Below are positions 30,960 to 62,186 of a stretch of DNA of 64,000 bases, in pieces (position 1 is the first letter of the stretch; each line of letters begins with the position of its first letter). The stretch lies in IMG/VR virus record IMGVR_UViG_3300028129_000011; one strand, written 5' to 3'. The DNA is from an uncultured virus (IMG/VR IMGVR_UViG_3300028129_000011). Taxonomy: Duplodnaviria > Heunggongvirae > Uroviricota > Caudoviricetes. A program made the position numbers and the translations under genes. A model generated the notes under the pieces. It did not search any database and was not told the DNA's origin. It saw only the letters and a program-made list of their open reading frames with translations.

Positions 30960-32181
30960 ATGAATGAACAATATAAAATTGATCCATTAACTGGTAATCC
31001 AGTAGAGTATACTGTAACACCACCACAGCCTTCTAGTTTAGTATCTCCTTTTGGAGATAAAAGTATAGGTATTGGTAATGCGGTTATGGGTACAATTGAA
31101 CAAAGACAACAATCTCTAGGTAAAAATACGCCTTTTTTTAAAAAGAGTTGCGGAAGCTATAAAAAATAAAAATATGGAAAATATGAAACAAAAAGCACAA
31201 GGACAAGTAGGTGAAAATACTTTATGGGACGGACCTTTAAGTCAAGCGGGTAGACCTCACGCAAAAGGATCTAGCTCTGGAGCAAAAGGTATGAAATTAA
31301 AAGTAATGCAACCTTGTGGATGCGTTGGTGATTGTGGTTGTGGGCAATTGAACGGTCCTATAACTGGTAGAGCTAAAGGATAGAGTTATGCCTTACATTC
31401 AGTCAAGTAAAAGTCCTTTGTTAAAAGTAGACAAGTCTAAAATGCCTTGTAACAAGCCAAAAGCTCAAGTAAGTGGTGGTAAGTCGCATGTGGTAAAAGC
31501 TTGTGAAAACGGTAAGGAGAAAATAATTAGATTTGGTCAAGCAGGAGTTAGTGGTGCTGGAAAAAAGAAAGATGCTAAATCTAATGCTAGAAGAAAATCA
31601 TTTCAAGCTAGACACGCTAAAAACATTAAGAAAGGTAAAATGTCTGCAGCGTATTGGGCTAACAAAGTTAAATGGTAATATGGCTTTTAAACTAAGGAGT
31701 TCAGATAAGAAAATAGATAACACGCCTATATATAGAGTTGATATGGAAGATGGTGTTTTAGGTATGGCCAACAAAAATGGTTCTATACTTATAAATAAAA
31801 ATCTTTCACCTTTACAAGAGAAAAAAGTAATTGATCACGAAAAAATCCACGTAGATCAAATCAATAGAGGAGATTTAACTTATGATGATAAAAACGTTTA
31901 CTGGAAAGGTAAAAAGTATTCTAGAAAAAGCATGGACGAAGGTAACAGAAGACTTCCGTGGGAAAAAGAAGCATACGCTAAGAGTAAATAACTATAAATA
32001 AATAAACAAAGAAATGAAAAGTCCTTTTAAAATGAAACCAGGTAGAGGTAATATGCCTAAAACAGGTAAAGATATACCTTTAAATATGAAGTCTCCAGCG
32101 TATATGACAGATGGTCCTAGCGATAAAAAAGATCCAACAAAAATGGGTGATATACCTGGTAAAAAACTTAATAAAAAGTAA
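30960..32181 (+). other. Cluster of small basic proteins (30960-31169, 31174-31383, 31388-31678, 31680-31991 with HEKIH zincin motif, 32014-32181)
   Basis: Co-oriented; shared (S/T)P(F/L)K-like motifs; 32014-32181 translated by hand (MKSPFKMKPGRG...). Confidence 0.65.
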
Positions 32182-32580
32182 ATGAAAAAAATATTTCAAT
32201 GGCTTACCGGTGGTGTCATTAAAGATATTGGTGGCGTTATTGATAAGCTTACTACTACAGAAGAAGAAAAACTTTTAATTAAAAAACAAATACAAGAAAT
32301 ACTAGAAAAAGCTGATAGTGATGCTCAAGAGCAAGTCACCGAACGTTGGAAAGCTGATATGGCTAGTGATAGTTTCTTGTCTAAAAACATTAGACCTTTG
32401 GTTTTAGTGTTTTTAACGTTTGTTTTTACTATTTTAGCTTTCTTTGACGGGAATATTGGAGGATTCCAAGTAGCAGAGCAATATGTGCCTATATTTCAAT
32501 CTTTATTAATAACCGTATATGGAGCATACTTTGTAGGTAGGACTTGGGAAAAGAATAAAAAATCAGGTAATAATAAATAA
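32182..32580 (+). CDS. Holin (3TM/GTA-type)
   Basis: RWKADM.SDS.LSKNIRPL, TM segments, GAYFVGRTWEK. Confidence 0.75.
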   Translation: MKKIFQWLTGGVIKDIGGVIDKLTTTEEEKLLIKKQIQEILEKADSDAQEQVTERWKADMASDSFLSKNIRPLVLVFLTFVFTILAFFDGNIGGFQVAEQYVPIFQSLLITVYGAYFVGRTWEKNKKSGNNK

Positions 32581-33694: not shown

Positions 33695-33914
33695 GGAACT
33701 TATAAAAGTAGCTAAAGAAGCTATTGTAGATTCTGATGACGACATAAGTGCTGATAGATTAAAAAACGCAGCCGCTACTAAAAAACTAGCTATATTCGAT
33801 GCTTTTGAAATATTGAGCCGTATAGAAGAGGAAGAGAATTTACTAAAAGAAAAACCTAAAGATACTGAGAACAAAAAAGTGTTTAGAGGTTTTGCAGAAG
33901 GAAGATCTAAGTAA
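33639..33914 (+). CDS. Putative terminase small subunit
   Basis: Helical protein coupled (TAATG) to TerL. Confidence 0.5.
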   Translation: MNTKETKKNIIQAGQKAVEELIKVAKEAIVDSDDDISADRLKNAAATKKLAIFDAFEILSRIEEEENLLKEKPKDTENKKVFRGFAEGRSK

Positions 33915-36136
33915 TGTACGAACAAACTCTTGTAAAGACATTAAAAGAACACATAAAGCCTTCTATATTAAAAAGAAACAACAGATATAAGAAGTGGAAG
34001 TATGGTTATGATGCTGAACACGACGTTGTTATAATAAGTAAAGACGGAACTGTAGGTGAAGTTATAGAAATACAAAATCTAAAAATAGCTCTACCTAAAG
34101 CACCTAAAGAAGTTTACAGCTGTTCTGATATTAAAAAAGAACAGATGTGGAAGAGGTTAGAATACCCTAAGGAACTTTCTAGAATTAAAAGCGTTTTCGA
34201 TTGGGAGAAGCGAAGTGATGATTTCAAAGAAAGTTGGTATGATTATATAGATACAGAGTTCAATAGACGTGAACAAGGTTTTTGGTTTAAGAACAACGGA
34301 AAATCAACATACCTAACTGGTACACACTATATGTACTTACAATGGTCCAAAATAGATGTTGGTTATGCTGACTTTAGAGAATCAAATAGATTGTTTTTTA
34401 TATTTTGGGAAGCTTGTAAAGCTGATATTAGATGTTATGGTATGTGCTATTTGAAGAACAGACGTTCTGGATTTAGTTTTATGTCTTCGTCAGAATCAGT
34501 TAATCAAGCCACAATGTCTTCAGATGCTAGATTCGGTATATTATCTAAATCTGGTGCTGATGCAAAGAAAATGTTTACAGATAAGGTTGTACCTATTAGT
34601 ATAAACTATCCATTCTTTTTTAAACCGATACAAGACGGTATGGATCGACCTAAAACTGAATTAGCTTATAGAGTTCCAGCTTCTAAATTAACTAGAAGAA
34701 AACTAAACGAAGGTGTTGAAGAAATAGAGTTAGACGGATTAGATACAACAATTGACTGGAAAAACACAGGTGATAACTCTTATGATGGTGAAAAACTAAG
34801 ATTACTAGTTCATGATGAAAGTGGTAAATGGGAGAGACCTGATAACATATTAAATAACTGGCGAGTTACAAAAACTTGTTTGCGATTAGGTAGTAGAATT
34901 GTTGGTAAGTGTATGATGGGTTCAACATCAAACGCTTTAGATAAAGGAGGTAAGAATTTTAAAAAATTATATTATGCATCAGACGTCACAAGTAGAAACC
35001 GCAATGGCCAGACTAGCTCAGGATTATATAGTTTGTTCATACCTATGGAATGGAACTACGAAGGATTCATTGATGCTTATGGCGTACCAGTCTTCAATAA
35101 ACCAAAAGGGGAGGTTTTAGATTCTAACGGTGATACTATATCTCAAGGAGTTATAGAACATTGGGAAAACGAAGTTGAAGGATTAAAAAATGATCAAGAC
35201 GGATTAAACGAATACTATCGTCAGTTTCCAAGAACGGAAAAACACGCTTTTAGAGATGAGGCTAAACTATCTTTGTTTAATTTAACTAAAATATACGAAC
35301 AGATAGATTATAATGAAGACTTAAACAATAGTAAACAAGTTACTGCAGGTAGTTTTCAATGGGTTAATGGAGTTAAAGATACTAAAGTACAGTTTATACC
35401 TAACAAAGATGGTAGATTTTTAGTTACTTGGATCCCTAAAGCTGAATTACAGAATAAAGTTATAATTAAAAATGGCGTAAAATACCCTGGTAACGAGCAT
35501 GTTGGCGCTTTTGGTTGTGATAGTTACGATATATCAGGTACTGTAGATAGTAGAGGTTCTAAAGGTTCTTTACACGGTTTAACTAAGTTTAGTATGGAAG
35601 ATGCTCCTGCTAATATGTTTTTTTTAGAGTACATAGCTAGACCTCAAACTGCTGAGATATTTTTTGAAGATATATTAATGGCTTGTGTTTTTTATGGAAT
35701 GCCAATACTAGCTGAAAATAACAAACCTAGACTTTTGTATTATTTTAAAAGAAGAGGTTACAGAGGATTTTCAATAAATAGACCAGATAAAATATATTCA
35801 AAGCTATCTGTTACAGAAAAAGAAATAGGTGGAATACCTAACTCTAGCGAAGATATTAAACAAGCTCACGCTGCAGCTATAGAATCTTATATAAATGATT
35901 TTATAGGTGCAACTGAAAGAGGTTACGGTCAAATGTATTTTCAAAGAACATTAGAAGATTGGTCGAGGTTTGATATAAATAATAGAACAAAGTTTGATGC
36001 AACTATAAGTTCTGGTTTAGCTATAATGGCTTGTAATAAAAATAAATACACACCGGTGTACAAACAAAACAAAAGTAAACCTGTTTTAAATTTTAAGAAA
36101 TACGACAACAAAGGATATACTTCAAAAATAATATAA
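33914..36136 (+). CDS. terL: Terminase large subunit
   Basis: KNRRSGFS Walker A variant, LVHDESGK Walker B, GCDSYD nuclease, LAENN, FDA.IS. Confidence 0.9.
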   Translation: MYEQTLVKTLKEHIKPSILKRNNRYKKWKYGYDAEHDVVIISKDGTVGEVIEIQNLKIALPKAPKEVYSCSDIKKEQMWKRLEYPKELSRIKSVFDWEKRSDDFKESWYDYIDTEFNRREQGFWFKNNGKSTYLTGTHYMYLQWSKIDVGYADFRESNRLFFIFWEACKADIRCYGMCYLKNRRSGFSFMSSSESVNQATMSSDARFGILSKSGADAKKMFTDKVVPISINYPFFFKPIQDGMDRPKTELAYRVPASKLTRRKLNEGVEEIELDGLDTTIDWKNTGDNSYDGEKLRLLVHDESGKWERPDNILNNWRVTKTCLRLGSRIVGKCMMGSTSNALDKGGKNFKKLYYASDVTSRNRNGQTSSGLYSLFIPMEWNYEGFIDAYGVPVFNKPKGEVLDSNGDTISQGVIEHWENEVEGLKNDQDGLNEYYRQFPRTEKHAFRDEAKLSLFNLTKIYEQIDYNEDLNNSKQVTAGSFQWVNGVKDTKVQFIPNKDGRFLVTWIPKAELQNKVIIKNGVKYPGNEHVGAFGCDSYDISGTVDSRGSKGSLHGLTKFSMEDAPANMFFLEYIARPQTAEIFFEDILMACVFYGMPILAENNKPRLLYYFKRRGYRGFSINRPDKIYSKLSVTEKEIGGIPNSSEDIKQAHAAAIESYINDFIGATERGYGQMYFQRTLEDWSRFDINNRTKFDATISSGLAIMACNKNKYTPVYKQNKSKPVLNFKKYDNKGYTSKII

Positions 36137-36139
36137 TAA

Positions 36140-38557
36140 ATGATTTATAAAAGTGTAAATAGTTCTTTCCCTAGTCAGGTAGTACCTGATGCAGAAAAGC
36201 AAACTCTAGAATATGGTTATGAAGTAGGTAGAGCTATAGAAAATGAATGGTTTCGTGGTGACCGTGGTTCTGGTGCTGGTGGTAGGTTTGGTAATAACTG
36301 GCAAAACTTTCATAGATTACGTTTATATGCTAGAGGAGAACAATCTGTTCAAAAATATAAAGATGAATTATCTGTTAATGGTGATTTATCTTATCTTAAT
36401 TTAGATTGGCAACCTGTTGCTGTTTTATCTAAGTTCGTTGACATTGTAGTTAACGGTATGGTTGATAAAGGTTACAAAATAAAAACATTTGCAACTGATC
36501 CAGTTGCTATGAAACAGAAAACAGATTTTGCCGCTAACGTATTAAGAGATATTCAAGCTAAAGAATTATTAGAAGAATTAAAACAAAAGGTAGGTTTAGA
36601 CTTATACGCGAGTAATGATCCTGATAACTTACCAGAAACAAGAGAAGATTTAGACTTATATATACAACTTAACTACAAGCAAAGTATAGAGATAGCAGAA
36701 GAAGAGGTTATAGATAACGTATTAGAGTTTAATAGATATGAAGAAATAAAAAAGAGAGTTGCTCAAGATTTAACTATATTAGGTATTGGAGCTACAAAAA
36801 CTAGTTTTAATTTATCAGAGGGTGTTACTGTAGATTACGTTGATCCAGCTAATTTAGTTTATTCATATACAGAAGATCCTAACTTTGATGATATATATTA
36901 CGTTGGTGAAGTTAAAAGTGTTTCTTTACAAGAACTTAAAAAAGAATTTTCACATCTTACAGACTCTGACTTAGAGGAAATACAAAAAACATCTCCAGTA
37001 TCTAGTTACAATAGACAGTATAGTGGTCAAGACGATAACTATGATAATGTTCAAGTTTTATACTTTGAATATAAAACGTACTCTAATCAAGTTTTTAAAA
37101 TAAAGAAAACTGATCAAGGCTTAGAAAAAGCTTTAGAAAAACCAGATACTTTTAACCCGCCAGAAAACGATAATTTCGAAAAGGTTAGTAGATCTATTGA
37201 AGTTTTATATTCTGGTGCTAAGATTCTTGGTCAAGACAAAATGTTAGAATGGAAGCTAGCTGAAAATATGACTAGACCATACAGTGATCAAACTAGAGTT
37301 GAAATGAATTATTGTATTTCTGCTCCTAGAATGTACAAAGGTCGTATTGATAGCTTAGTTAGTAAGTGTATTGGCTTTGCTGATATGATTCAGATAACAC
37401 ATTTAAAGATACAGCAAGTTTTATCTAAAATGGTTCCTGATGGTGTATTTGTAGACGTTGATGGTTTAGCTGAGGTTGACTTAGGTAATGGAACATCATA
37501 CAATGCACAAGAAGCTCTTAATATGTATTTCCAAACTGGTAGTATAGTTGGTAGATCTTTAACTCAAGACGGTGATCCTAACAGAGGTAAAGTACCTATT
37601 CAAGAATTACAATCATCATCTGGAATTAATAAGATACAAGCATTAATACAGACTTATCAGTATTATTTACAAATGATAAGGGATGTTACTGGGTTAAATG
37701 AAGCTAGAGATGGTAGTATGCCAGCTAAAGATTCTTTAGTAGGATTACAGAAGTTAGCCGCTGCTAATTCTAATACTGCTACAAAACATATATTACAATC
37801 TTTAATGTACATTACATTAAGAACATGTGAAAATATAAGTTTAAGAGTTGCTGACGCTTTAGATTTCCCTCTAACTAAAAACGCTTTAATGAATGCTATA
37901 AATTCTGTTAACACTGCGACATTAGAAGAAATATCTGAATTAAACCTTCATGAGTTTGGTATATTCTTAGATTTAGAACCAGATGAAGAAGACAAGCAGA
38001 TGTTAGAGCAAAATATACAAATTGCTTTACAGACGCAGAGTATAGATTTAAGTGACGCTATAGATATACGAGATATTAAAAATATAAAACTAGCTAATCA
38101 ATATTTAAAACATAAGCAAGAGCTTAAAAGAAAACAAAGATTAGAAGAACAGCAAGCAAATATACAAGCACAAGCTCAAGCGAATGCTGAAGCTGCTGAA
38201 AAAGCTGCTATGGCAGAAGTTCAAAAACGACAAGCTATGGCTGAAACCGAGTTACAGATAGAGCAAGGTAAGTCTCAGTTTAAGATACAGCAAATGCAAC
38301 AAGAAGCTGAGATAAAGAAACAATTAATGGCTGAGGAGTTTAACTATCAAATGCAACTAGCTCAAGTTACAGCAAATGCTCAAATGAATAAAGAGCAAGA
38401 AAAAGAAGATAGAAAAGATAAAAGAACTAAGATACAAGCTACACAGCAATCTCAGTTAATAGATCAAAGAAAAAATGATACTATGCCTAAAGATTTTGAA
38501 TCATCAGGTAATGATGTTTTAGGTGGATTTGACTTAGGATCTTTTGAACCAAAATAA
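36140..38557 (+). CDS. Portal protein
   Basis: 805 aa after TerL; YLNLDW.PV, RDVTGLNEARDG, Q-rich coiled-coil C-terminus. Confidence 0.85.
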   Translation: MIYKSVNSSFPSQVVPDAEKQTLEYGYEVGRAIENEWFRGDRGSGAGGRFGNNWQNFHRLRLYARGEQSVQKYKDELSVNGDLSYLNLDWQPVAVLSKFVDIVVNGMVDKGYKIKTFATDPVAMKQKTDFAANVLRDIQAKELLEELKQKVGLDLYASNDPDNLPETREDLDLYIQLNYKQSIEIAEEEVIDNVLEFNRYEEIKKRVAQDLTILGIGATKTSFNLSEGVTVDYVDPANLVYSYTEDPNFDDIYYVGEVKSVSLQELKKEFSHLTDSDLEEIQKTSPVSSYNRQYSGQDDNYDNVQVLYFEYKTYSNQVFKIKKTDQGLEKALEKPDTFNPPENDNFEKVSRSIEVLYSGAKILGQDKMLEWKLAENMTRPYSDQTRVEMNYCISAPRMYKGRIDSLVSKCIGFADMIQITHLKIQQVLSKMVPDGVFVDVDGLAEVDLGNGTSYNAQEALNMYFQTGSIVGRSLTQDGDPNRGKVPIQELQSSSGINKIQALIQTYQYYLQMIRDVTGLNEARDGSMPAKDSLVGLQKLAAANSNTATKHILQSLMYITLRTCENISLRVADALDFPLTKNALMNAINSVNTATLEEISELNLHEFGIFLDLEPDEEDKQMLEQNIQIALQTQSIDLSDAIDIRDIKNIKLANQYLKHKQELKRKQRLEEQQANIQAQAQANAEAAEKAAMAEVQKRQAMAETELQIEQGKSQFKIQQMQQEAEIKKQLMAEEFNYQMQLAQVTANAQMNKEQEKEDRKDKRTKIQATQQSQLIDQRKNDTMPKDFESSGNDVLGGFDLGSFEPK

Positions 38558-38584
38558 AAACAAATTATTTAATTATATTATATT

Positions 38585-39778
38585 ATGTCAGAAGTAAAAC
38601 AAGAAGGAGACTTTAAAATAAAGTCTAAGCCTAAAAAACCTAAAAACTTAGGTAAAAAAAATGAAATAACAAGAGTTGAAATACCTAACGAAACACCAAA
38701 AGATCAAGGTGAAGTTATTCCTGAAGTTACAAAAGTAGAAATAAAAACAACACCAAATGCCGATACAGAGCAAGAAACAACAAACGTGGTTACAGATGAA
38801 CCAACCCCAATTGTACAGGAAGTGGTTGAAGAAGTATCACAACAACAAAGCTCCGTTCAAAATGAAGTCGCTGAAATTACAGAAATAACTGAAGAAGAAG
38901 TACAAGATTTAGAACAAGAGTTAGGTGAAGCTTTAGATAGTCAAGAAAAATCTGGAACTAAGTTACCAGAAAACATCGAAAAGCTCGTATCTTTTATGGA
39001 AGAAACTGGAGGTACTTTAGAAGATTACGTTAGATTAAACCGTGATTATTCTAATGTTAATGAAAACGCTTTGTTAAAAGAATATTACAAAAAAACAAAA
39101 CCTCATTTAGACGATGAGGATATTAATATCATCTTAGAAGATTTTTCATATGATGAAGAACTTGACGATGAAAGAGAAATACGCAAAGCAAAAATTGCGT
39201 ACAAAGAAGAAATTGCAAAAGCCAAAAACTTTTTAGAGGAAACTAAGAGTAAATATTACGATGAGATCAAGTTGAGACCAGGCGTAACTCAAGACCAACA
39301 AAAAGCTATGGACTTTTTCAATAGATACAATGAAGAGCAAGAAACTGCTAAACAAAAACATCAAGAGTTTTTACAAAAAACTAAAAACTTACTAAACAAC
39401 GATTTTAAAGGTTTTGATTTCAGTGTAGGTGAGAAAAAATTTAGGTATGGAGTAAAAAATGTTGATAATGTAGTTAAAGAGCAATCAGATATATCCACGT
39501 TTATAGGTAGGTTCCTAGACAAAAATGGTAATATATCAGATACTAAAGGGTATCATAAAGCTCTCTATGCTGCAAGAAATGCCGACACTATTGCACAACA
39601 CTTTTACGAGCAAGGTAAAGCTGACGCTATAAAAGAAGTTGCTGCTAAATCTAAAAACATTACAACAGAGCCAAGGCAAAATGCAAGCGGCAATGTTTTT
39701 GTTAATGGAATAAAAGTTAAAGCAATTAGTGGTCTTGATTCCTCGAAACTAAAAATAAAAACAAGAAAATTTAACTAA
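38585..39778 (+). CDS. Capsid scaffold protein (putative)
   Basis: Acidic protein between portal and capsid; HFYEQGKADA. Confidence 0.7.
   Translation: MSEVKQEGDFKIKSKPKKPKNLGKKNEITRVEIPNETPKDQGEVIPEVTKVEIKTTPNADTEQETTNVVTDEPTPIVQEVVEEVSQQQSSVQNEVAEITEITEEEVQDLEQELGEALDSQEKSGTKLPENIEKLVSFMEETGGTLEDYVRLNRDYSNVNENALLKEYYKKTKPHLDDEDINIILEDFSYDEELDDEREIRKAKIAYKEEIAKAKNFLEETKSKYYDEIKLRPGVTQDQQKAMDFFNRYNEEQETAKQKHQEFLQKTKNLLNNDFKGFDFSVGEKKFRYGVKNVDNVVKEQSDISTFIGRFLDKNGNISDTKGYHKALYAARNADTIAQHFYEQGKADAIKEVAAKSKNITTEPRQNASGNVFVNGIKVKAISGLDSSKLKIKTRKFN
38757..38888 (+). CDS. Overprinted 43-aa basic peptide in the +1 frame of the scaffold gene
   Basis: MPIQSKKQQTWLQMNQPQLYRKWLKKYHNNKAPFKMKSLKLQK; A-rich start context; ends with the PFKMK motif of this phage's small basic proteins. 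Confidence 0.7.
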   Translation: MPIQSKKQQTWLQMNQPQLYRKWLKKYHNNKAPFKMKSLKLQK

Positions 39779-39792
39779 AAAAATTAAAAATT

Positions 39793-41244
39793 ATGGCTTT
39801 AAGTCCTGCTTTCGGTTCAATTAAACCGAGTCAAAAACAACAAATTTTAGAATCTAACTTCTTATCATTTAATGGTGGTTCAGGAGCTGGAGATTCAAAC
39901 ACATTCGCACAACAGTATTTACCAGAGATCTACGAGCAAGAAGTAGAGCGTTATGGAAACAGAACATTATCTGGATTCTTACGTATGGTTGGTGCTGAAA
40001 TGCCAATGACTTCTGATCAAGTAATTTGGTCTGAACAAAATAGATTACACGTTGCTTACAACGATGTAGCTAACGACGGAACTAACACTTTAACTTTTAC
40101 AGTTGGTGGTTCTGGAGATGCATTTGTAGAAAACGTAATTTCTAAAAACCAAACTATTGTGATCTTAGATCCAGCTGGTTTAGAATTAAAAGCTTTAGTA
40201 ACTCAATCTTCTCAGACTGGTTCTACTGCTACTATTGAGGTTGCTCCTTATACTGCTGCTAACACTGGTGCTTTAGCTGCTACAGGATTAAAAATCTTTG
40301 TATACGGTTCTGAATATGGAAAAGGATCTAGCATTGCTAACTCTACTGGAGCTACTGATGTTAATGGTTACAAATCTATAACTCCTTCTTTTACTCAACA
40401 CTCTAACTCTCCTATCATTATCAGAAATAAATATGTAGTTTCTGGATCTGATATGGCTCAAATCGGTTGGGTTGAAGTAGCTACTGAAGATGGTGCTTCT
40501 GGATATTTATGGTATTTAAAAGCTGAGTCTGAAACTAGATTACGTTTCGAAGATTACTTAGAAATGTCTGTAGTTGAAGGTGAAAAAGCTGCTGCTTCTT
40601 CTGGAGCTGAAGCTGCTGGAGTAAAAGGTACTCAAGGTTTATTTGCTGCTATCAAAGAAAGAGGTAATGTAAACGTTGGTTTTACTGCTGCTACTGGATT
40701 AGCTGCTTTTGATGAAATCTTAAAAAACTTAGATACTCAAGGAGCTATTGAAGAGAACATGTTATTCTTAAACAGACAAACTGCTTTAGATTTTGATGAC
40801 ATGTTATCTGATATTTCTGCTGGAAACAACGGAGGTACTGCTTATGGATTATTTGAGAATTCAGAAGATATGGCTTTAAACTTAGGTTTCTCTGGTTTCA
40901 GAAGAGGTTCTTATGACTTCTATAAAACTGATTGGAAATACTTAAACGATGCATCTACTCGTGGAGCAATCCAAGGAGCTACTGCAAGTGTTGAAGGTGT
41001 ATTAGTACCTGCTGGAACTTCTACAGTTTACGATCAAATCTTAGGAACTAACATTAGACGTCCTTTCTTACACGTAAGATATAGAGCTTCTCAAGCTGAT
41101 GATAGAAGAATGAAAACTTGGTTAACTGGTTCTGCTGGTGGAGCTTTCACTTCTGATTTAGATGCTATGGAAGTAAACTTCTTATCTGAAAGATGTTTAT
41201 GCGTACAAGGTGCTAACAACTTTGTATTATTCCAAGGAGTATAA
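39793..41244 (+). CDS. Major capsid protein
   Basis: Position, size and strongly optimised codons; followed by a terminator hairpin. Confidence 0.85.
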   Translation: MALSPAFGSIKPSQKQQILESNFLSFNGGSGAGDSNTFAQQYLPEIYEQEVERYGNRTLSGFLRMVGAEMPMTSDQVIWSEQNRLHVAYNDVANDGTNTLTFTVGGSGDAFVENVISKNQTIVILDPAGLELKALVTQSSQTGSTATIEVAPYTAANTGALAATGLKIFVYGSEYGKGSSIANSTGATDVNGYKSITPSFTQHSNSPIIIRNKYVVSGSDMAQIGWVEVATEDGASGYLWYLKAESETRLRFEDYLEMSVVEGEKAAASSGAEAAGVKGTQGLFAAIKERGNVNVGFTAATGLAAFDEILKNLDTQGAIEENMLFLNRQTALDFDDMLSDISAGNNGGTAYGLFENSEDMALNLGFSGFRRGSYDFYKTDWKYLNDASTRGAIQGATASVEGVLVPAGTSTVYDQILGTNIRRPFLHVRYRASQADDRRMKTWLTGSAGGAFTSDLDAMEVNFLSERCLCVQGANNFVLFQGV

Positions 41245-51371: not shown

Positions 51372-54300
51372 ATGCCTAAGTATAAATTATCAAGCGGTAA
51401 ATTCATTATAGTTAAAGATGATGATGTTCAAGACTTCTTAAACTCAGATATCGGTAAAGGAGCTACGGTTGTAGAAGAAATAGCCACTCCTGTAGTTACA
51501 GAAGATTATGTTAAAACACCAGGTATAGACTTTGATGATTACTTAAAACCAGCAAAGACCGAAGACTCTGCGAGTGCGGATCCAACTGTGGAGTCAAAAG
51601 ATATGGGATCCAAATTGGTAGATGGTTCTTTGGAATTCAAAGAATCTAATCAACAAGCTTTATTAAACTATAAAAAAAGAACTGGCAAAGAAGCAGGTTC
51701 TATAATGGATTTATCAGATGAAGACTATGAAACTCCTTTAGATAAATTTAAACCAGTAGACTATAATAAAGTAGTAATAAATGGTAGAAAAAAAATAAAA
51801 AACTACGCTGACGAAAGAGTAAAGCTTGCGAAAAAATTAGAAATATTTTCTTATGATCAATTTGGAGCAACAAACGAAGCTGTAGATTATGTTAAGCAAG
51901 GTTTAAAATCTTTTGATAAAAAAGTTGATAACGAAGTTAAAAATCTAGAATTAAACGACGAGTTTAAATTAAGAAACGATGCTTTAAATCAATTAATTAA
52001 AGACACTGGTAACACACAAGCTACAGGAGAAGCTGTTAAGGATGTAGGTAGTGAATTTAATGTTTTAAATGTATTTAGAGGTGCTAGTTACTATAAAGAC
52101 ATAGAAGCTGATGAAGTTATTTCCTTAAACGATGAAGTAGAGCAGAGCGTTTTAGATAAGTTAGATAAAAGATCTTTGCAGAAATTAGCTGGTGGTTTCT
52201 ACACGTTACAAGAAAAAGAAAACTTGATAAATGAGTCTAAGTCAAGTATAATAGATACTAGAATAAAAACTTATAAAGATAATTTAGATAAAGCTACGTT
52301 TAACGTAGAGTCTAAATTAGATAATAATAAAAAGAAACTTAAAGAGCTTGAAAGTTTTATTAATCCTTTAGAAAATAGAGAAGACTTAACTCAAGAAGAA
52401 GCTAATAACTATAACGATGCTGTTAATCAATATAATAGCATATTAGCTGAATCTAAAAATATAGTAAAAGAGTATAATGAATACAAAACTATTGAAACTC
52501 AAAAAGTAGAATCATTAGAAGGTGAATTTGGTTTCGATGTAGCTAAAGGCGTTTTAAGAAACAACTTTAAGCTTACAGACAAAGTAGAGAAGTTTAGAGA
52601 AAAATATTCCGGTGAAGGTTTCTGGAATGGCGCCGCGGATATATTAGGAGGTGAAGTTCTTCAAGGTTTTTATCAGACAATGAAAAAAGCAACTGTCGGT
52701 AGTGTTACTTGGGCTATGGCAAACAGCGCTGATTTGCTCACGGATCAAGACTCTTATTCAGCTTATGATGCTTTTAGTGACGTTATTAATAACTGGTCAA
52801 ATAAAACATTGGTACCTAGATCAACTAGTGAGGAATTTGATATAACAAAAAAAGAAGGTGGCTTTAAAGATTTCTCAGCTAGAAATTATGCTAAGCTAGG
52901 TGCTTCTATGGTTCCATTTACAGGTTACTTAATAAGCGAAGTAAGGAAAGGTAAATACAATAACATAAAACAAGCTATAGGTGATACGTATTTAAAGTTT
53001 GGAAATAAAGGTAAAGTATTAAAAGACGCTTCACAAACCCTAAAAAACAACATCATAATGGTTGATGCTACTTTTAGAGCAACTATACTTGACAACCAAA
53101 AAGAAGCTGAAGCTAAAGGTTTTAACGGCTTAAAAGCAAACTCTTATGCAACTACAGTTTCAGCTACTGAAGCTATGGTACAAATGATAATGCCAGATAC
53201 ACAGTTTTTAAAAGGTGTTAAAGGTAAAGCTATTTTAGATAATTTCACTGGCTCTTTGAAAAAAGCAGCTAATAAACAAGCTGTGATATCAGCTGGTAAA
53301 GAATTTACTACTAACGTGTTAAAAGAATACGGTGAGGAAGAGATAAATGCTTTTGCTAACATGATAACAGACGTTTCTTATGGATTAGCACTACCAAAAA
53401 CTAGTGACTTTTTAAACGAACAAATACAACTAACAGCTGGTACTTTGATGCTAAGTGGTAGCATGGGTTTAGTAGGTGCTGCTAATACTTATAGTAATCA
53501 AAAAAAGCTTGTATACAATCAAATACACGAAAACATAAACTCTTTAAACACTCACTTATTAGAGATAGCTAGAAAATCTAAAAACATTGAAGTCAAAGAT
53601 GATATAGTAAAAGCTATGAAATTTGCTAAAGATGTTAGTCAAGCTATTGAATCTTCACCTGAAAACGTTACTTCTGATCAAATAGATCTTTTAATAAAAA
53701 AGAAAAACCTTATCGATAAAAAATCTAAGACAGATAAATCTTTTCATGTAGCTATAGATAAAAGCATTAACGAGATTAATGAAAAAATAGAAGCTGGCTC
53801 AATAAGGGAAAACGTAAGAAATAAGTTTGACGCGGATATAAAAAATATAAGTAAATCTTTAAATTCATCTGGAACAAGAGTAGATGAAACTATAGTTTTT
53901 GAAGATTCTGATGGTAGAACAGCAGCAGAAAAAATGAAAGAAAAGCTTTTAGAGCTTGGTAAGTCTGAAGAATTTGCTGAAGCAAATAAAAACTCATATG
54001 GTGCTTTTATAGTGGATAAAAACGGTAAAGAGTTGTTAATAGTAAACAAAGAAGCTGCTGTTGCTAATAGTGTTGTGTCTACTGGTCAACATGAGTTTTT
54101 ACATAAACTACTAAGATCTAGGTTTAAAAACAAACCTGAAGAGCTAAAAAAAGCTGCTAACTTATTAAAAGAGGAAGTAGAATCTATAAACAAAAAAACA
54201 GGTCAAGGTTATGATTTTATTAGTAGATTAAAAACATACGAAGAAGATTTAGCTGAAGGAAATCTTAGCGAAAGCGGTTATTATGAAGAGGTGTTTACTC

Positions 54301-57300
54301 TTTTTTCAGAAGCTTTATCTAGTAAAGATATAAAAATAAATAAAAGCACTATAGGAAAAATTGGAGATTTTATTAGACAATCTTTTCAAAACGCTGGGTT
54401 TAAGAAAATAAAATTCAACAACGCTGACGACGTTAAAAACTTTATAATAGACTACAACAAAGCTTATTCCAAAGGTAAGATTAAAGGTTCTTTAGCTGGT
54501 AAAACTAAAAGCTTTGCTATAGGATCTTCTATTTCTCTTAGTAAATCAGTTGAGCAGATACAAAAAGAAATTATAGCTTTAGAAGAACAATATGATGAGC
54601 AAACTATAGACTACTATGATTTCGAAAATAGAATGGATATACTTGAAGCTGAATTAGAGAAAGCTAAAAAAGCTCCTAAGGAAACTCAAGTAAAACCTGT
54701 TAAAAAATCTACTCAATTAAGCGTACAAGATATAAAAGATCAAATAGAACAACTAGATGAAGATTTATATAGCGGAGTTATAGATGACATTGACTACGAG
54801 CAAAGATTAGATTTATTAGAAGAGAGATTAAAGCAAGCTGAATTAAGAGCAACTAATCCTAAAAAAGCTCAAGAGAATCAAGATAAGATAGTAAAACAAT
54901 CTATAGATAAATTCAAAAAAGAAGTATCTGAAGAAACAGTATCTGATAAAAACAAGAAAATAGCTAAAATAAACGAAGATATAGCTAATGAAATGTTGGA
55001 ACTAGGTGCTAATCAAGTTTCAGATATAGAAGATCCTATTAAGCGTAAACAAATAATAGATAAGTTAGGTAGGAATAACTTAGGTGCTGTAACTAATTTG
55101 ACAAAAAGAGCAGCAGCTGCAGGTAAAAACCTAGCTATAGATGATAACCTTAAAATAGGTTATGATGAGTTTTTCTCTGGATTTAGTGAAGAATTATCAG
55201 CATTGATAAAATCATATAAGGTTGAAGTTGACGGTAAGAGAGTACCTTTTGGTGCTTACATGAATAAAAACTTACCTTTAAGATATGGACAGATATTAGA
55301 TAATGCTTTAAAAGGTAGAATAGAAGGTTCTAAGAGCTTAGATGTTCAAGCTGGAGAGAAAGGTTATGCTGGATCTATAATAGCTGATAGAGCAGCAGAT
55401 TTCGATGCTACTACTAGTGCTGAAATGGGATTACCTGTTGATGATCTTATAGATGTAACTACTTTTAGAAAAGTTAAAGATAAAGTAGAAACAATAAAAG
55501 AAAGTATAGATTTAACAGATGTTGACTTAGATAACTTAACTTATAGAAAAATACAAGATGATTATTCTGGTCAAGTTGGTGCTGAGTTAATTGGTATGTG
55601 GGATAGAAACGCTAAACCTGAAGCTGATCAAGATAGAAATGATTTCCAAAAACTAGCAGAAAGAATAGAAGGTACTAGAACTTTAAACTACGGTAAAGAT
55701 ACTGGTGGTGAAGCTGAGGTTAGAGCTATGCAAGGTTTATTCTTAGACTACAATGATGCTGTTAAGTTTATAAAAACTATGCCTGAATTCAATGTTGCTC
55801 CTTTTGAGACAACTATCGATGAACAAGGTAGATCTATAGATTTAACTGAAGATGCTAGAGGTTACAGTACAGGTATATCAAATAAATTACTTAAAGAGTT
55901 TTACGAACCATACATTGATCCAAAATCTAAAAGTTCTGACAAAGGCACTAAAAGTAGAGCAATAACGTCTCCTTCAGGTAGAGGTAAAGGTAAAACATCT
56001 CAAGTAGCTAAAGTATATAGATTAAAACCTGAGTACAGAGGTAAAATATCTAGACAAACAGTACAAGAGTTACAAAAAAAAATAGGTATAACACCTGCTG
56101 GTGAAGCATTCATACCTATGAAAGGTAAAAATAGAACTGAATTTGGTACTGCTTTACAAGGTTTAACTAAAATGTATGCTACTAACGTAGCTAATACTAT
56201 AATTAGAAAGAAAATTGTAGAAGAAGGTCTTAGCTCTGAAAGAAAAACACCTGAAAAACTATTAGCTGACATAGGTGGTGGTAAATCTAGTATTATGTTT
56301 AGTAGAGCAGCTGACCTAGGTTTAAATGTTCCTTTTGAAACACCTCAGTTAGGTAATGTATTGTTTTCTAAAAAAGCTAGAGCCGAATACGAAAGTGTAC
56401 TTAGAAATAAGAGACCTGATTTAGAAAATCCAAGAGAACAAGTAGATGAGTTAATAAAGTGGGGTGATGCTTTAAATGTTAAAGAAAATAAGAAGGCTAA
56501 GTACAAGAAGTTAGCGTTATATTATATGGCTAACGGCTTTGTTATAATGCCAGAAGATGGTTACAAGGTTGTAGAAGCTATTAGGTTGGGTGAAGCAAAT
56601 AAGGTAGATCCATACACTGTTAAAAACCCTAACGAACTTATAGAGAGATATCAAGCTAAAACTAAAGGCGCTAGAATAAATCCAGACGAAGTTGAACAGT
56701 TTTCAAATAAAAAAGCTTTAAAAGAAGGCGTTGTTGTATATGATGTTGAAGATTCTAAGAAAGGGCAGTTAGCTTTAAGGAAAGTTATTGACACTAATTG
56801 GGGTTATAAAGCAAACCCTTGGTGCTTAGCGGCTAGATCTGACGGGGCTGATTACATAGAAACCAACGAAGCAGAATCTAGAGAAGAAGCTGAAGAAATG
56901 ATCGCTGATTACAAAGAAGCAGGGTATCATGCTAAAATAGAAGGTACTTACACACATAAAGGTAAAGAGATTTTTGAGATAGCAGTATCTGAAATTGATA
57001 AAGACCCTGAAAAGCTGAGTCAAGCTTTTAAACTGTGGAAAAGTTATAATGAAGAAGGTAATGGTTTTAAAATAGCTTTTCAAAACGGTAAATTAATTTC
57101 TTTTAGAGATGGTGACAAAATGGAATGGTGGGATAGAATGGATAGAGGTTCTGTAAATATACCTTTGAAACCGTTAGATAAAAGCAAAAAACAACACTTA
57201 AAAAACTTAAATGAAGAAAAACAAATGGATCCTGAAACAGGTGAAGTTTTTATTTCAAAAAGAATTACAGAAAACACTATAGATGGTGGTGCTATCGAAA

Positions 57301-60855: not shown

Positions 60856-61618
60856 ATGAAATTAAAAGGTTGGGTTATAATAGCTTTGTTTGCAGGTTGG
60901 AATACTTTAAGAGTTTTTAGAAAAAAATTAGAAAAAATGTTTAAAAGATTAAAAAATATCTGGTCACGTAGTGATTCGCAACCTACAGAAATAACTTTAT
61001 CTTTAGCGAATATATTTTTAACCCATGTTGCAATTGGTATTGAGTTTGGAGGTAATTATGTCTTTAGAGTGGTAATACTATTAAGTGGTATATATCAATT
61101 ATATTGTGTATCAAAAGAAGAAATAAACTGTAGATTAAAAGCTTCGGTTTTTTCATTTGCAGTTTACTTAATTTCAACTGTTATTTATATTAAATCTATT
61201 GGACTTCCAACACCTACTCATTATGGGTGGTTAGTTCTTTGCTTTGCATCCTTCGGTAGTATGCGTCGATTAATATTAGAAAAAATACATAGACAAAAAG
61301 TAAATAATGGATAACATCACACAAATTATAATTACACTTGTAACAGTAGCTGGTTCAGCTGGAATATGGAAGTTCTTAGAAGCTCGCTTAAAAACAAAAG
61401 CAGAAAATAAAAAAATAGATTTACAAAACAACGACGGTATACAGTATAGAGACGACTTAAAACATAGAGTAAAAAATCTTGAAGCTTTGCTTTCTGAGTC
61501 TAGTAATGATAAAGATGAACTACGTAATCAAGTTTTAGAACTGACAGCGGAAGTTAATGCTTTGCGTGTTAAAGTAGAGTTTCTTGAAAAAGAAAACGAA
61601 CGCTTAAAAAATAAGTAA
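60856..61618 (+). other. Two membrane proteins of the lysis region (60856-61314 multi-TM; 61307-61618 TM + coiled coil)
   Basis: Hydrophobic segments; adjacent to the endolysin. Confidence 0.6.
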
Positions 61619-62004
61619 TGAAAATAACAGAAAACTTTAATCTTAGTGAGTTTCAATGTAAGTGTGGTTGTGAGATGCCTTATACTGTTGAAAAAAATAT
61701 AATTGAACTTGCTGATAATTTACAAATATTAAGAAATCACTTAAACAAGCCTATAAATCCAACAAATGGCTTTAGATGCGCTACACATAATAAAAGTGTT
61801 GGAGGAGTTAAAAATTCTCAACATATATTAGGTAAAGCTGCGGATATTAAAGTTAAAGATGTTTCTCCTAATGAAATAGCTGACGCTATAGAGTATTTAA
61901 TGGAAAGTGGTAAATTTAAAATGGGTGGAGTTGGTAGATATAATACATTTACTCATGTAGATATACGTGGTAGTAAAGCTAGATGGAATAAAACTAAAAA
62001 ATAA
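61618..62004 (+). CDS. Endolysin, peptidase M15A family
   Basis: NF.LSEF.CKCG, FRC..HN..VGG..NSQH..GKAADI, THVDIRG. Confidence 0.88.
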   Translation: MKITENFNLSEFQCKCGCEMPYTVEKNIIELADNLQILRNHLNKPINPTNGFRCATHNKSVGGVKNSQHILGKAADIKVKDVSPNEIADAIEYLMESGKFKMGGVGRYNTFTHVDIRGSKARWNKTKK

Positions 62005-62186
62005 TGAAAACAAAAAAACAACAAAATTTCAGAGCTTTAATGGATAATGAAGCTAGATTAAAAGCATTAGGTAAAGGAATCAACAGTCCTTTTAAGATGA
62101 AAAATCCTTGCTGGAAAGGATATGAAGCTATAGGTATGAAAACACTTAAAGGTAAAAAAGTACCAAACTGTGTACCTAAAAAATAA
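62004..62186 (+). CDS. Small basic protein
   Basis: SPFKMKNPCWKGY...GMK...GKKVPNCVP. Confidence 0.7.
   Translation: MKTKKQQNFRALMDNEARLKALGKGINSPFKMKNPCWKGYEAIGMKTLKGKKVPNCVPKK

What the first reader, a model, noticed from the sequence alone, without database searches (positions are those of the whole stretch)
38757..38888. Basic peptide gene nested in the acidic linker of the scaffold gene
Seen: the +1 frame gives MPIQSKKQQTWLQMNQPQLYRKWLKKYHNNKAPFKMKSLKLQK, with an A-rich start and the phage's own PFKMK tag. From memory it resembles small phage proteins of the pattern MPFKS.KQR.(Y/W)L.AN.P.IA.KW..KY (not verified by search). This is the best internal evidence that the phage uses overprinting systematically.
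Basis: partly seen in the sequence, partly recalled or inferred. Interest (0 to 1): 0.75.

Follow-up and report, generated by a model that had tools for sequence, protein, structure and literature searches.

The report
Conserved small gene nested in scaffold-like gene
A 43-codon gene hidden in a second reading frame of a marine phage's scaffold-like head gene is real and conserved, belongs to a very large uncharacterised family of phage peptides, and was probably swallowed by the larger gene, not invented inside it.

Summary
The ORF at 38757-38888 exists exactly as described, in the +1 frame of the 397-codon gene between the portal and major capsid genes. Its presence in one genome is only mildly improbable, but comparison settles it. 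67 of 80 relatives of the host gene keep a +1 ORF at the same place. In 30 independent pairs, substitutions fall on the nested frame's wobble position (141/58/36 by host-frame position, against 1102/736/2413 downstream). The peptide changes less than the host protein over the same bases (74 vs 190 differences).

The peptide belongs to a family of 3,557 cluster representatives with no Pfam family. The family occurs as free-standing 40-60 aa genes, as the extreme N-terminus of long proteins, and once fused in frame to the host's C-terminal domain. The non-nested copies examined lie in head modules, mostly just downstream of a portal gene.

The model is a 27-residue two-helix hairpin with a basic tail, encoded inside the host's disordered linker. 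I read it as an independently translated head-assembly docking or targeting peptide. That the gene is real is about 0.9; that function is about 0.4 and inferred. "Systematic overprinting" is not supported.

The parts
38757..38888 (+). Nested gene: 43 codons plus TAA, in the +1 frame of the host gene; the window's only copy of the MPFKS-type module
   Evidence: Searches give the ORF; the HMM of the nested family matches this place in the six-frame window at E 1.3e-16, and the next best match is 0.34; a profile of short called proteins (A2) scores it 25.3 bits. Searches show conservation and the codon-position signature.
38737..38756 (+). A-rich, G+C-poor leader before the internal ATG (AGAAATAAAAACAACACCAA); presumed initiation region without a Shine-Dalgarno sequence
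   Evidence: A fraction 0.67, the 99.7th percentile of 797 internal out-of-frame ATGs and within the range of 60 true starts. Relatives average 0.64+-0.07. That this region drives initiation is inferred, not shown.
38757..38759 (+). Start codon ATG, spanning host codons AAT|GCC
   Evidence: The start is ATG in 66 and TTG in 1 of the 67 relatives that carry the ORF. The +1 frame is closed a median of 5 codons upstream, range 1-25.
38772..38837 (+). Predicted two-helix hairpin (residues 6-15 and 17-27) holding the conserved Q8, P17, W23 and Y27
   Evidence: AlphaFold2 with alignment A1, mean pLDDT 78.9, and 84/93/81 for the first three blocks of ten residues. One search gives the invariant and near-invariant columns.
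38850..38867 (+). APFKMK motif in the disordered basic tail
   Evidence: in the 12 sequences of the window's subfamily, K[AT]PFKM[KR] has 1-2 residues per column in the nested frame and up to 4 in the host frame; variable sites by nested-frame position are 3/2/7; the same pentapeptide occurs at 32023 and 62088.
38886..38888 (+). Stop codon TAA, formed by the host's conserved E-(I/V)-T motif (GAA ATA ACT)
   Evidence: in most relatives the nested ORF ends at ..AAG/AAA TAA, where the host frame reads QE(I/V)T-EEE. This is the start of the host's conserved part.
38585..39778 (+). Host gene: 397 aa, scaffold-like by position. Residues 1-96 are predicted disordered and acidic; residues 103-357 are mostly helical
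   Evidence: One search gives the ORF. AlphaFold2 with A4, pLDDT below 50 at residues 1-15 and 20-96; distant homologues cover only residues 117-393 and are annotated 'structural protein'. It has no Pfam, PHROG or PDB fold match, so 'scaffold' is an inference.
36140..38557 (+). Portal gene directly upstream
   Evidence: P22_portal E 8e-8; phrog_6547 E 7e-151.
39793..41244 (+). Capsid-type virion protein gene directly downstream
   Evidence: phrog_13704, E 6e-95.
32014..32181 (+). 55-aa protein starting MKSPFKMK. It shares the PFKMK motif only and lies directly upstream of a holin-like gene
   Evidence: 32182-32580 = phrog_3427 holin, E 1e-27; 26 of 36 distinct relatives fit the loose pattern [STA]P[FLMIV][KRNQ][MQL], most of them as an N-terminal [ST]PFKM.
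62004..62186 (+). 60-aa protein with ..NSPFKMKNPCWKGY..VPNCVP. It shares the motif only and lies directly after the endolysin gene
   Evidence: 61618-62004 = Peptidase_M15_3, E 7e-23.

Best explanation
The ORF is a genuine protein-coding gene, translated from its own start codon inside the scaffold-like gene. I put this at about 0.9.

It encodes one member of a very large, unnamed phage family. The core of that family is the first ~27 residues (M-P-[FI]-[KQ]-S-x-x-Q ... P ... W ... Y). These are predicted to fold as a helix-turn-helix hairpin and are followed by a disordered basic tail.

My reading of its function is an inference, at about 0.4. I take the hairpin to be a head-assembly docking or targeting module. 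It would bind a component of the assembling procapsid (portal, scaffold core or capsid interior), while the basic tail binds a polyanion such as packaged DNA or the acidic scaffold linker.

In other phages the same module is free-standing beside the portal gene, or it forms the very N-terminus of the long protein encoded after the portal gene. In this lineage the module's gene lies inside the linker of the scaffold-like gene in another frame.

The likely history is that the host reading frame came to run across a pre-existing module gene. A one-base frame swap from a module-scaffold fusion like the one in locus L126 would do this. The disordered acidic linker is largely the out-of-frame shadow of the lysine-rich peptide.

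Shown: the ORF, its conservation, the selection signature, family membership, genomic contexts and fusions.
Inferred: translation, the binding partner and virion association.
For: 1. Conservation. 80 of 80 fetched relatives have the host gene. 67 of 80 carry a +1 ORF of 36-59 codons (30 in L042 if counted from its first ATG) at nt 113-209 of the gene: 66 start with ATG and 1 with TTG. None of the 81 genes has a +2 ORF of 25 or more codons.

2. Selection. In 30 independent sequence pairs, substitutions in the first 28 nested codons fall 141/58/36 on host-frame positions 1/2/3. In the last 250 host codons they fall 1102/736/2413 (p = 1e-37). Amino-acid differences are 74 in the peptide and 190 in the host frame over the same bases. 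A control +1 ORF region in the same gene gives 75/66/214.

3. The peptides have diverged to 21-74% identity yet keep M1, P2 and Q8 in all 54 distinct sequences, and P17 and W23 in at least 90%.

4. Family. A profile of short called proteins recognises 67 of 67 nested peptides; the window's scores 25.3 bits. Free-standing copies exist in three named phages and in 28 of the loci fetched. There are 3,557 representatives at E <= 1e-3, and in 141 of the best 150 the match starts at residue 1-3.

5. Context. I scanned 16 non-nested loci (108 of their 245 ORFs, from 34 distinct loci). Ten have a phrog_1216 portal gene upstream. One has a T7-type portal plus scaffold. Four have a ~720-735 aa phrog_3287 virion structural protein upstream, adjacent to the module gene in three and two small ORFs away in the fourth. 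One lies just after the major head protein gene.

6. Fusions. Nine loci carry the module at the N-terminus of long proteins; at least four of these proteins sit right after the portal-position gene. In L126 the module is in frame with the host's whole C-terminal domain (347 aa), while a separate 76-aa N-terminal ORF ends in a stop.

7. Start signals. The leader is A-rich like true starts. The +1 frame is closed a median of 5 codons upstream.

8. Structure. The hairpin model has pLDDT 78.9. The overlap lies wholly in the host's disordered residues 20-96.

9. All 36 nested copies from the second search whose host could be tested sit in homologues of the same host gene, always at offset +1.
Against: - There is no direct evidence of translation. 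RNA-library contigs cover the region at 100% identity, but contigs cannot show starts or translation, and DNA carry-over is possible.
- 13 of 80 relatives lack the ORF, including the six whose C-terminal domains are among the closest to the window's (75-81%). No second copy was found in the five partial records of such phages (0 of 5). The positive control found 5 of 5. The gene is therefore dispensable or replaceable.
- The A-rich leader could be a side effect of the linker's K/E codon composition.
- No binding partner is shown.
- The module is nearly the same across phages with different portal families, which argues against a portal-specific contact.
- The P-RSP2 copy lies among small unannotated genes at 7 kb of a 42-kb genome. 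The FlowerPower copy lies between a 'peptidase' and the holin. So the head-module rule has exceptions.
- The host gene is called a scaffold only from its position and composition.
Confidence: 0.6

Rival explanations
1. The peptide is a small nucleic-acid-binding or regulatory protein and is not part of the head. It might, for example, repress translation of late or scaffold mRNA, or act as a DNA-binding factor. Its place in head modules would then reflect only co-expression.
For: The peptide is very basic, and free-standing members end in K/R runs. The hairpin sequence is nearly constant across phages of unrelated hosts and portal families, which fits a universal ligand such as nucleic acid. 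The P-RSP2 copy lies outside a recognisable head module.
Against: The module is almost always the extreme N-terminus of long, low-complexity proteins encoded after portal genes. It is fused to the scaffold-like domain in L126. A pure regulator would not be expected in these forms. It matches no known DNA- or RNA-binding family.
Confidence: 0.15
2. The peptide works with a small membrane protein of the holin type, in lysis timing or membrane-linked assembly. This would echo phiX174, where the lysis gene E sits inside scaffold gene D.
For: FlowerPower gp48 lies between a 'peptidase' and the holin. In 6 of the 16 scanned loci a phrog_2524 gene lies upstream of the free-standing gene; it directly precedes it in L101 and L129. 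The phrog_2524 proteins have 1-2 predicted membrane helices. The window's holin-like protein hits that family weakly, at E 0.0036. The window's other two PFKMK proteins flank the holin-like and endolysin genes.
Against: The peptide has no hydrophobic stretch, signal peptide or lipobox; this can be read directly from its sequence. The link between phrog_2524 and holins is weak: pairwise BLAST gives E = 1 and there is no Pfam holin hit. In the window the nested gene is about 6 kb from the holin-like gene and 23 kb from the endolysin gene.
Confidence: 0.1
3. The nested frame is not a separate protein but the start of an alternative isoform. Ribosomes that begin at the internal ATG would shift back into the host frame near the end of the ORF and make a module-scaffold fusion, as is hard-wired in L126.
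For: In L126 the module is in frame with the C-terminal domain. Five called proteins in the database (P0001, P0080, P0088, P0021, P0069) start in the nested frame and continue in host-frame-like sequence.
Against: There is no conserved slippery site: only 6 of 60 distinct ORF ends have an A-run of 6 or more, and none shows a shared heptamer. P0001 and P0080 show further frame breaks, as sequencing errors would. The nested ORF ends at a conserved stop, and its tail is itself conserved in the nested frame.
Confidence: 0.07
4. The ORF is a non-functional by-product. Shifting an acidic, GAA/CAA/ACA-rich linker by one base gives lysine-rich, stop-poor sequence by itself.
For: A +1 ORF of this length arises in 13% of synonymous resamplings of the host gene. 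The basic character does follow from the frame shift of acidic codons. 13 of 80 relatives do without it.
Against: Substitutions concentrate on the nested frame's wobble position and spare the host frame's wobble position. The start codon and five residues are conserved across 54 distinct peptides of 21-74% identity. Homologues exist as free-standing genes in unrelated phages. The control ORF and the neighbouring genes show no such pattern.
Confidence: 0.04

Closest known systems
phiX174 gene E inside gene D (external scaffolding protein); recalled from textbook knowledge
   Same: A small gene lies wholly nested, out of frame, inside a scaffolding-type gene and is translated from its own start.
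   Different: E is regarded as a de novo overprinted, lineage-restricted membrane protein that causes lysis. The gene here has thousands of free-standing and fused relatives and no membrane segment, and it is the more constrained of the two frames.
Lambda Rz1 embedded in the +1 frame of Rz, with embedded, overlapped and separated arrangements in different phages; recalled
   Same: It is a +1-frame embedded gene whose family also occurs as separate genes elsewhere. The two products are functionally linked.
   Different: Rz1 is a lipoprotein spanin subunit. Here there is no lipobox or signal sequence, the context is the head module, and the family also occurs as an N-terminal fusion.
T4 capsid targeting sequence of the internal proteins (T4 head literature seen only as search listing and abstracts; otherwise recalled)
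   Same: It is a short N-terminal element that heads otherwise unrelated proteins. My proposal is that the module likewise brings proteins into the assembling head.
   Different: The T4 element is about 10 residues, is cut off by the prohead protease, and is not a free-standing gene. No targeting has been shown here, and there is no sequence similarity.
SPP1 gp7 / Mu F-type minor head proteins encoded next to the portal gene; recalled
   Same: The position just downstream of the portal gene is conserved. The element acts as an N-terminal carrier for variable C-terminal regions.
   Different: The MuF domain is about 100-300 aa and is a Pfam family. The module here is 27-30 aa and has no Pfam hit.
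phrog_1375 (PHROGs, function unknown) and Pfam DUF3008 (PF11450)
   Same: 11 of 54 nested peptides, and some free-standing ones, hit phrog_1375 weakly (E 2e-5 to 7e-3). The nearest protein-atlas cluster that carries a Pfam family is DUF3008, at score 0.84.
   Different: The window's own peptide does not hit phrog_1375 at E <= 0.01. No member hits DUF3008 in hmmscan. Both families are uncharacterised, and no paper in the library mentions DUF3008.

Membership tests
MPFKS-type N-terminal module family (unnamed; defined here by alignments A1 and A2) | Begins at the initiator Met with M-P-[FIY]-[KQ]-S and keeps Q8, P17 and W23 | tested here: met
   The window peptide has M1, P2, S5, Q8, P17 and W23. 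Position 3 is I and position 4 is Q, as in its 12-member subfamily.
MPFKS-type N-terminal module family (unnamed; defined here by alignments A1 and A2) | Significant match to a profile built without the nested sequences | tested here: met
   the A2 profile scores the window peptide 25.3 bits (E 4.5e-8 in a set of 67), aligned over residues 1-38. Caveat: free-standing context was verified for only some A2 sequence types.
MPFKS-type N-terminal module family (unnamed; defined here by alignments A1 and A2) | Lies in the head module, at or just after the portal gene | tested here: met
   The window copy starts 200 bases after the portal gene's stop. 15 of 16 scanned non-nested loci have a portal or phrog_3287 gene upstream.
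phrog_1375 | hmmscan match to the family profile | tested here: not met
   The window peptide has no hit at E <= 0.01. 11 of 54 relatives hit, best E 2e-5.
Pfam DUF3008 (PF11450) | hmmscan match at or near the gathering score | tested here: not met
   No hit at E <= 1 for the window peptide or three free-standing members, and none at E <= 0.1 for the 54 members. The only link is an atlas lead at 0.84. A profile-profile comparison was not run.
De novo overprinted gene (phiX174 E type) | The new frame is lineage-restricted, has no free-standing homologues, and is less constrained than the old frame | tested here: not met
   Homologues are widespread. The nested frame is the more constrained one.
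Programmed ribosomal frameshift product | A conserved slippery heptamer or homopolymer at the frame junction | tested here: not met
   6 of 60 distinct ORF ends have an A-run of 6 or more, and there is no shared heptamer. The ORF has its own conserved start codon.
Embedded lysis gene (Rz1 / E type) | A signal peptide with lipobox, or a transmembrane helix | tested here: not met
   Read directly from the 43-residue sequence: there is no run of hydrophobic residues and no Cys.
Phage scaffolding protein (the host gene) | Encoded between the portal and major capsid genes; largely helical; absent from mature virions | tested here: inconclusive
   Position and helicity are met. There is no family or fold match. 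Distant homologues are annotated 'structural protein', which would argue against loss from virions. This is not testable here.

The most novel reading that the evidence does not exclude
The 27-residue MPFKS hairpin is a general N-terminal 'address label' that loads proteins into phage heads, or docks them at the portal vertex, across thousands of phage lineages. As a free peptide it would be a packaged, DNA-binding internal protein. As a prefix it would carry scaffold-like and cargo proteins of 120-920 aa. In this flavophage clade a one-base frame swap would have freed the label from the scaffold-like protein. The scaffold's acidic disordered linker would then be the frame-shifted shadow of the label's own gene: an old gene overprinted by its neighbour, not a new gene overprinted on an old one.
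Probability: 0.25. Interest if true: 0.85.

Novelty: new variant of a known kind. Interest (0 to 1): 0.72.

Why it matters
Out-of-frame nested genes in tailed phages are rarely annotated, and very few are backed by comparative evidence as strong as this. Three things follow.

First, this case adds a missed gene to a widespread group of marine Bacteroidota-type podophages. At least 591 related contigs were found in one collection.

Second, it points to a peptide and N-terminal module family of about 3,500 sequence clusters that has no Pfam entry and no known function. The family sits at a fixed place in head modules.

Third, it offers a clean example in which the embedded frame is the older and more constrained one. 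This reverses the usual overprinting story. It also shows how a disordered linker can serve as the 'free' frame that tolerates a second gene.

If the module proves to be a head-targeting signal, it would help in reading phage structural modules and in loading cargo into capsids.

Tried and rejected
- DNA-level search of the host gene in named phages found no match. The window's own assembly is not held, and the nearest record G001 does not contain the host gene.
- Pfam and PHROG scans of the window peptide gave only noise (DENR_N at 0.058, phrog_552 at 0.14). The Ponericin, DENR_N and DUF1391 hits among relatives are weak compositional matches, and I discarded them.
- The PDB sequence search returned only designed beta-propeller repeats whose scores add up over many weak repeats; these are spurious. 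Foldseek found nothing for the peptide model and nothing at E <= 0.001 for the host model.
- Complex prediction of portal (A3) with peptide (A1) gave no verdict, score 0.00, and the controls were not run. This is no evidence either way.
- RNA runs: contigs from four seawater metatranscriptome libraries cover 38578-39000 at 100% identity. They cannot show transcript ends, strand or translation. One contig has an extra A after 38653 at depth 2.8, probably a homopolymer error.
- The frameshift-isoform idea was considered and set low.
- A holin link through phrog_2524 was considered. The pairwise comparison was not significant and there was no Pfam holin hit.
- Stand-alone copies in relatives lacking the nested ORF: none in their loci and none in five partial records. 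Those records are only 38-62% complete.
- Literature searches turned up no description of this nested gene or family among the listed titles and abstracts. The Patience phage paper (PMC4324244, passages read) reports embedded out-of-frame products found by mass spectrometry in another phage; there the second frame is not conserved.
- Earlier findings of this scan: none on record.
Full report
**Observation**

The window holds an ATG-to-TAA ORF at 38757..38888 on the + strand. It lies at offset +1 inside a 397-codon ORF (38585..39778). That ORF follows the large terminase gene (33914-36136; phrog_6681) and the portal gene (36140-38557; phrog_6547, E 7e-151; P22_portal, E 8e-8). It precedes a capsid-type gene (39793-41244; phrog_13704, E 6e-95). 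The window has 32% G+C.

The host gene matches no Pfam or PHROG family. Calling it a scaffold rests on its position, its acidic and helical nature, and nothing more.

**Is the ORF more than chance?**

Within this one genome, only mildly. I resampled synonymous codons of the host gene 5000 times. A +1 ATG-ORF of 43 or more codons arose somewhere in 13.1% of trials, and one starting in codons 30-110 arose in 1.0%. The basic character of the peptide is also what a one-base shift of GAA/CAA/ACA-rich acidic sequence gives by itself. The case therefore rests on comparison with relatives.

**Relatives**

Named phages have only distant homologues of the host protein. These cover residues 117-393 at about 35% identity and include 68 Flavobacterium 'elemo' phages, Maribacter phage Panino and an uncultured podovirus. 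None has the nested ORF.

IMG/VR holds at least 591 relatives. The best 80 (54-71% identity) were fetched, and all 80 yielded the host gene.
- In 66 of them a +1 ORF starting ATG-CCN (Met-Pro) begins at nt 113-209 of the gene and runs 36-59 codons.
- A 67th, L042, has the same peptide behind a TTG start.
- None of the 81 genes has a +2 ORF of 25 or more codons.
- Mapped onto the window's host protein, an ATG-ORF of at least 35 codons covers codons 58-100 in up to 84% of 80 sequences.
- The neighbouring portal (n=56) and capsid (n=56) genes reach only 9% and 18% at any position.

**Selection**

The 54 distinct peptides are 21-74% identical to the window's. All keep M1, P2 and Q8, and at least 90% keep P17 and W23.

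I compared 30 phylogenetically independent pairs. Substitutions in the first 28 nested codons fall 141/58/36 on host-frame codon positions 1/2/3. Host position 1 is the nested frame's wobble position. In the last 250 host codons of the same pairs they fall 1102/736/2413 (chi-square p = 1e-37). Over the same bases the peptide differs at 74 residues and the host protein at 190.

A second +1 ORF recurs further down the host gene (window codons 189-217). It gives 75/66/214, the ordinary single-frame pattern. In the overlap, the nested frame is therefore the one under purifying selection, and the host frame mainly has to stay open.

**Start and stop**

The 15 bases before the ATG are 67% A. That is within the range of 60 real starts in the window (54+-15%) and at the 99.7th percentile of 797 internal out-of-frame ATGs (37+-13%). 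Relatives average 64+-7%. This fits the A-rich initiation regions, without a Shine-Dalgarno sequence, that I recall for Bacteroidota. It could also partly reflect the linker's composition.

The +1 frame is closed a median of 5 codons before the start (range 1-25, n=67). This argues against entry by frameshifting from upstream.

The stop codon is made by the host's conserved QE(I/V)T-EEE motif (GAA ATA ACT read as ..A TAA). The nested gene thus fills exactly the variable linker and ends where the host's conserved part begins.

**The family**

A relative's peptide found matches in named phages by tblastn:
- Phage C75C1: an unannotated 34-aa ORF in a gap between genes.
- Streptomyces phage FlowerPower and six close kin: gp48, 72 aa, between a 'peptidase' and the holin.
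- Prochlorococcus phage P-RSP2: an unannotated 40-aa ORF.
- An uncultured phage, 023Pt_psg01: listed only; its region was not examined.

The HMM of the nested family scores the first three at 1.5e-14, 7.7e-12 and 9e-8.

Against 5.8 billion proteins, the profile finds 445 short proteins (19-91 aa) and 781 long ones (120-2000 aa). All are unnamed, and almost none has a Pfam domain. A full HMMER pass over 1.84 billion cluster representatives finds 3,557 at E <= 1e-3 and 1,155 at E <= 1e-10. In 141 of the best 150, the match begins at residue 1-3 of the protein.

A profile built only from short called proteins recognises all 67 nested peptides; the window's scores 25.3 bits. PHROGs holds a weakly related family of unknown function, phrog_1375: 11 of 54 relatives hit it, best E 2e-5, but the window's peptide does not. 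The protein atlas places the peptide among unnamed viral clusters of 36-44 aa (scores 0.93-0.94). Its nearest cluster with a Pfam family is DUF3008, at 0.84, which is a lead only.

**Architectures and context**

A second fetch used the free-standing profile and returned 77 new loci.
- 38 copies are nested in + strand host ORFs. 36 of these hosts are homologues of the window's host gene. The other two hosts are cut short by contig ends. All are at offset +1.
- 28 are free-standing genes of 40-83 aa. This count includes L118 and L119, where the apparent host is only an antisense ORF.
- 2 are cut off by contig ends.
- 9 copies form the N-terminus of long glycine-, serine- and lysine-rich proteins, up to 712 aa.
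- 1 locus, L126, has the module in frame with the linker and the whole C-terminal domain of the host protein (347 aa). The conserved N-terminal piece there is a separate 76-aa ORF ending in a stop. The terminase, portal and capsid genes of L126 are intact.

I annotated 108 of the 245 neighbouring ORFs, from 16 of the 34 distinct non-nested loci.
- 10 loci have a phrog_1216 portal gene upstream of the module gene.
- 1 locus has a T7-type portal and scaffold, with psbA downstream.
- 4 loci have a ~720-735 aa phrog_3287 virion structural protein upstream. It is adjacent to the module gene in three of them and two small ORFs away in L121.
- 1 locus has the module gene just after the major head protein gene.

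Across at least four different portal-position families, the module keeps a place in the head module, most often right after the portal gene. That is where it sits in the window too.

**Structure**

With alignment A1, AlphaFold2 models residues 6-15 and 17-27 as two helices joined by a turn at the conserved N-x-P. The mean pLDDT is 78.9, and it is 84, 93 and 81 for the first three blocks of ten residues. The tail is disordered. No solved structure resembles the model.

The host protein model has pLDDT below 50 over residues 1-15 and 20-96 and is helical from residue 103 on. The nested gene (host codons 58-101) therefore lies almost wholly in an intrinsically disordered stretch. The host model has no significant PDB match.

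**What it most likely is**

The gene is real and independently translated; I put this at about 0.9.

Its function is inferred. Three observations guide the inference:
- the module's fixed N-terminal position;
- its use as a prefix of otherwise unrelated long proteins encoded after portal genes;
- its fusion to the scaffold-like domain in L126.

Together these suggest a docking or targeting element of head assembly. The basic tail of the free forms would then bind a polyanion. This is comparable in logic to the T4 capsid targeting sequence and to the portal-adjacent MuF/gp7 carriers, both recalled from memory. I put this reading at about 0.4.

**Evidence against**

There is no direct evidence of translation. 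13 of 80 relatives lack the gene, among them the six whose C-terminal domains are among the closest to the window's. No second copy was found in five partial records of such phages (0 of 5), while the positive control found 5 of 5. The module is nearly the same in phages with very different portals. Two named phages carry it outside a recognisable head module.

**History**

The peptide family is wide and the nested frame is the constrained one. The host's linker, by contrast, is variable, disordered and specific to this clade. So the host frame is the likely newcomer over these bases. This is the reverse of classical overprinting. A single-base frame swap converts an L126-type module-scaffold fusion into the nested arrangement, and back.

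The four peptide subtypes do not follow the similarity of the host's C-terminal domain. The window's 'MPI' subtype sits with C-terminal domains only 65-69% identical to the window's. The closest C-terminal domains (75-81%) have no nested gene, or another subtype. The linker cassette has therefore been exchanged or lost repeatedly.

**The PFKMK motif**

The motif recurs in two real small proteins of the window.
- One is a 55-aa protein starting MKSPFKMK, directly upstream of a holin-like gene.
- The other is a 60-aa protein directly after the endolysin gene.

In the window's peptide subtype the motif is conserved in the nested frame. In the 55-aa protein's relatives an N-terminal [ST]PFKM is common: 26 of 36 distinct sequences fit a loose version of the motif. 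Its meaning is unknown.

**Verdict**

Neither 'systematic overprinting' nor de novo overprinting is supported.

Noticed in passing
window 32014-32181: A 55-aa protein (MKSPFKMKPGRGNMPKTG...) lies directly upstream of a holin-like gene (32182-32580; phrog_3427, E 1e-27). 50 relatives were found in IMG/VR, and most start M-(K/N)-(S/T)-PFKM-(K/T)-PGRGNMPKTG. It has no known family. It shares the PFK-type motif with the nested peptide.
   Followed up: partly
window 62004-62186: A 60-aa protein with the motif NSPFKMK followed by a CWKGY...G.K.VPNCVP module lies directly after the Peptidase_M15_3 endolysin gene (61618-62004). The Cys module alone has at least 581 relatives in IMG/VR and occurs inside several PHROGs of unknown function.
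   Followed up: partly
L126 4859-6044: In one relative the module is in frame with the scaffold-like C-terminal domain (347 aa), and the usual N-terminal piece is a separate 76-aa ORF overlapping it by 89 bases. This is either a natural frame-swapped form or a one-base assembly error. The neighbouring genes are intact.
   Followed up: partly
L101 3100-7329 and the like (L088, L093, L103, L117, L129): A group of marine phages shows a fixed head-module order: portal (phrog_1216), a phrog_2524 membrane protein with 1-2 predicted helices, the free-standing MPFKS gene, a protein with a GroES/Cpn10 domain (PF00166, E 7e-12), three unknown families, then the major head protein. A co-chaperonin-like gene inside a head module is unusual.
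   Followed up: no
L003, L016, L027, L035, L040, L041, L047, L055, L060, L069 (nested ORFs): One nested subtype carries two conserved cysteines (..A-C-Y-A-Q-N-N-P-K-W-[DN]-C-K-K-W..). They flank the turn of the hairpin, which suggests a disulfide or a metal site. Short called proteins of the same type exist (P0005, P0099).
   Followed up: no
proteins P0142, P0146, P0148, P0011, P0121, P0225; L129 1656-3791: Long carriers of the N-terminal module end in one of two conserved C-terminal motifs (..GGLANLFRVKN.. or ..LSNPS.RKYYKGLI). The spacers between the two ends range from about 30 to 650 residues. This looks like two functional ends joined by a variable tether.
   Followed up: no
window 39150-39236 (host gene nt 566-652): A second +1 ORF of 28 codons recurs in many relatives, but its substitutions follow the host frame (75/66/214). 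It is a by-product of strong host-frame conservation.
   Followed up: yes
window 38646-38653: One RNA-library contig has an extra A in the A8 run of the host gene, at depth 2.8. This is probably a homopolymer error. The run lies upstream of the nested gene.
   Followed up: no
window 51372-60851: A single ORF of 3159 codons lies in the structural region. It was not examined.
   Followed up: no
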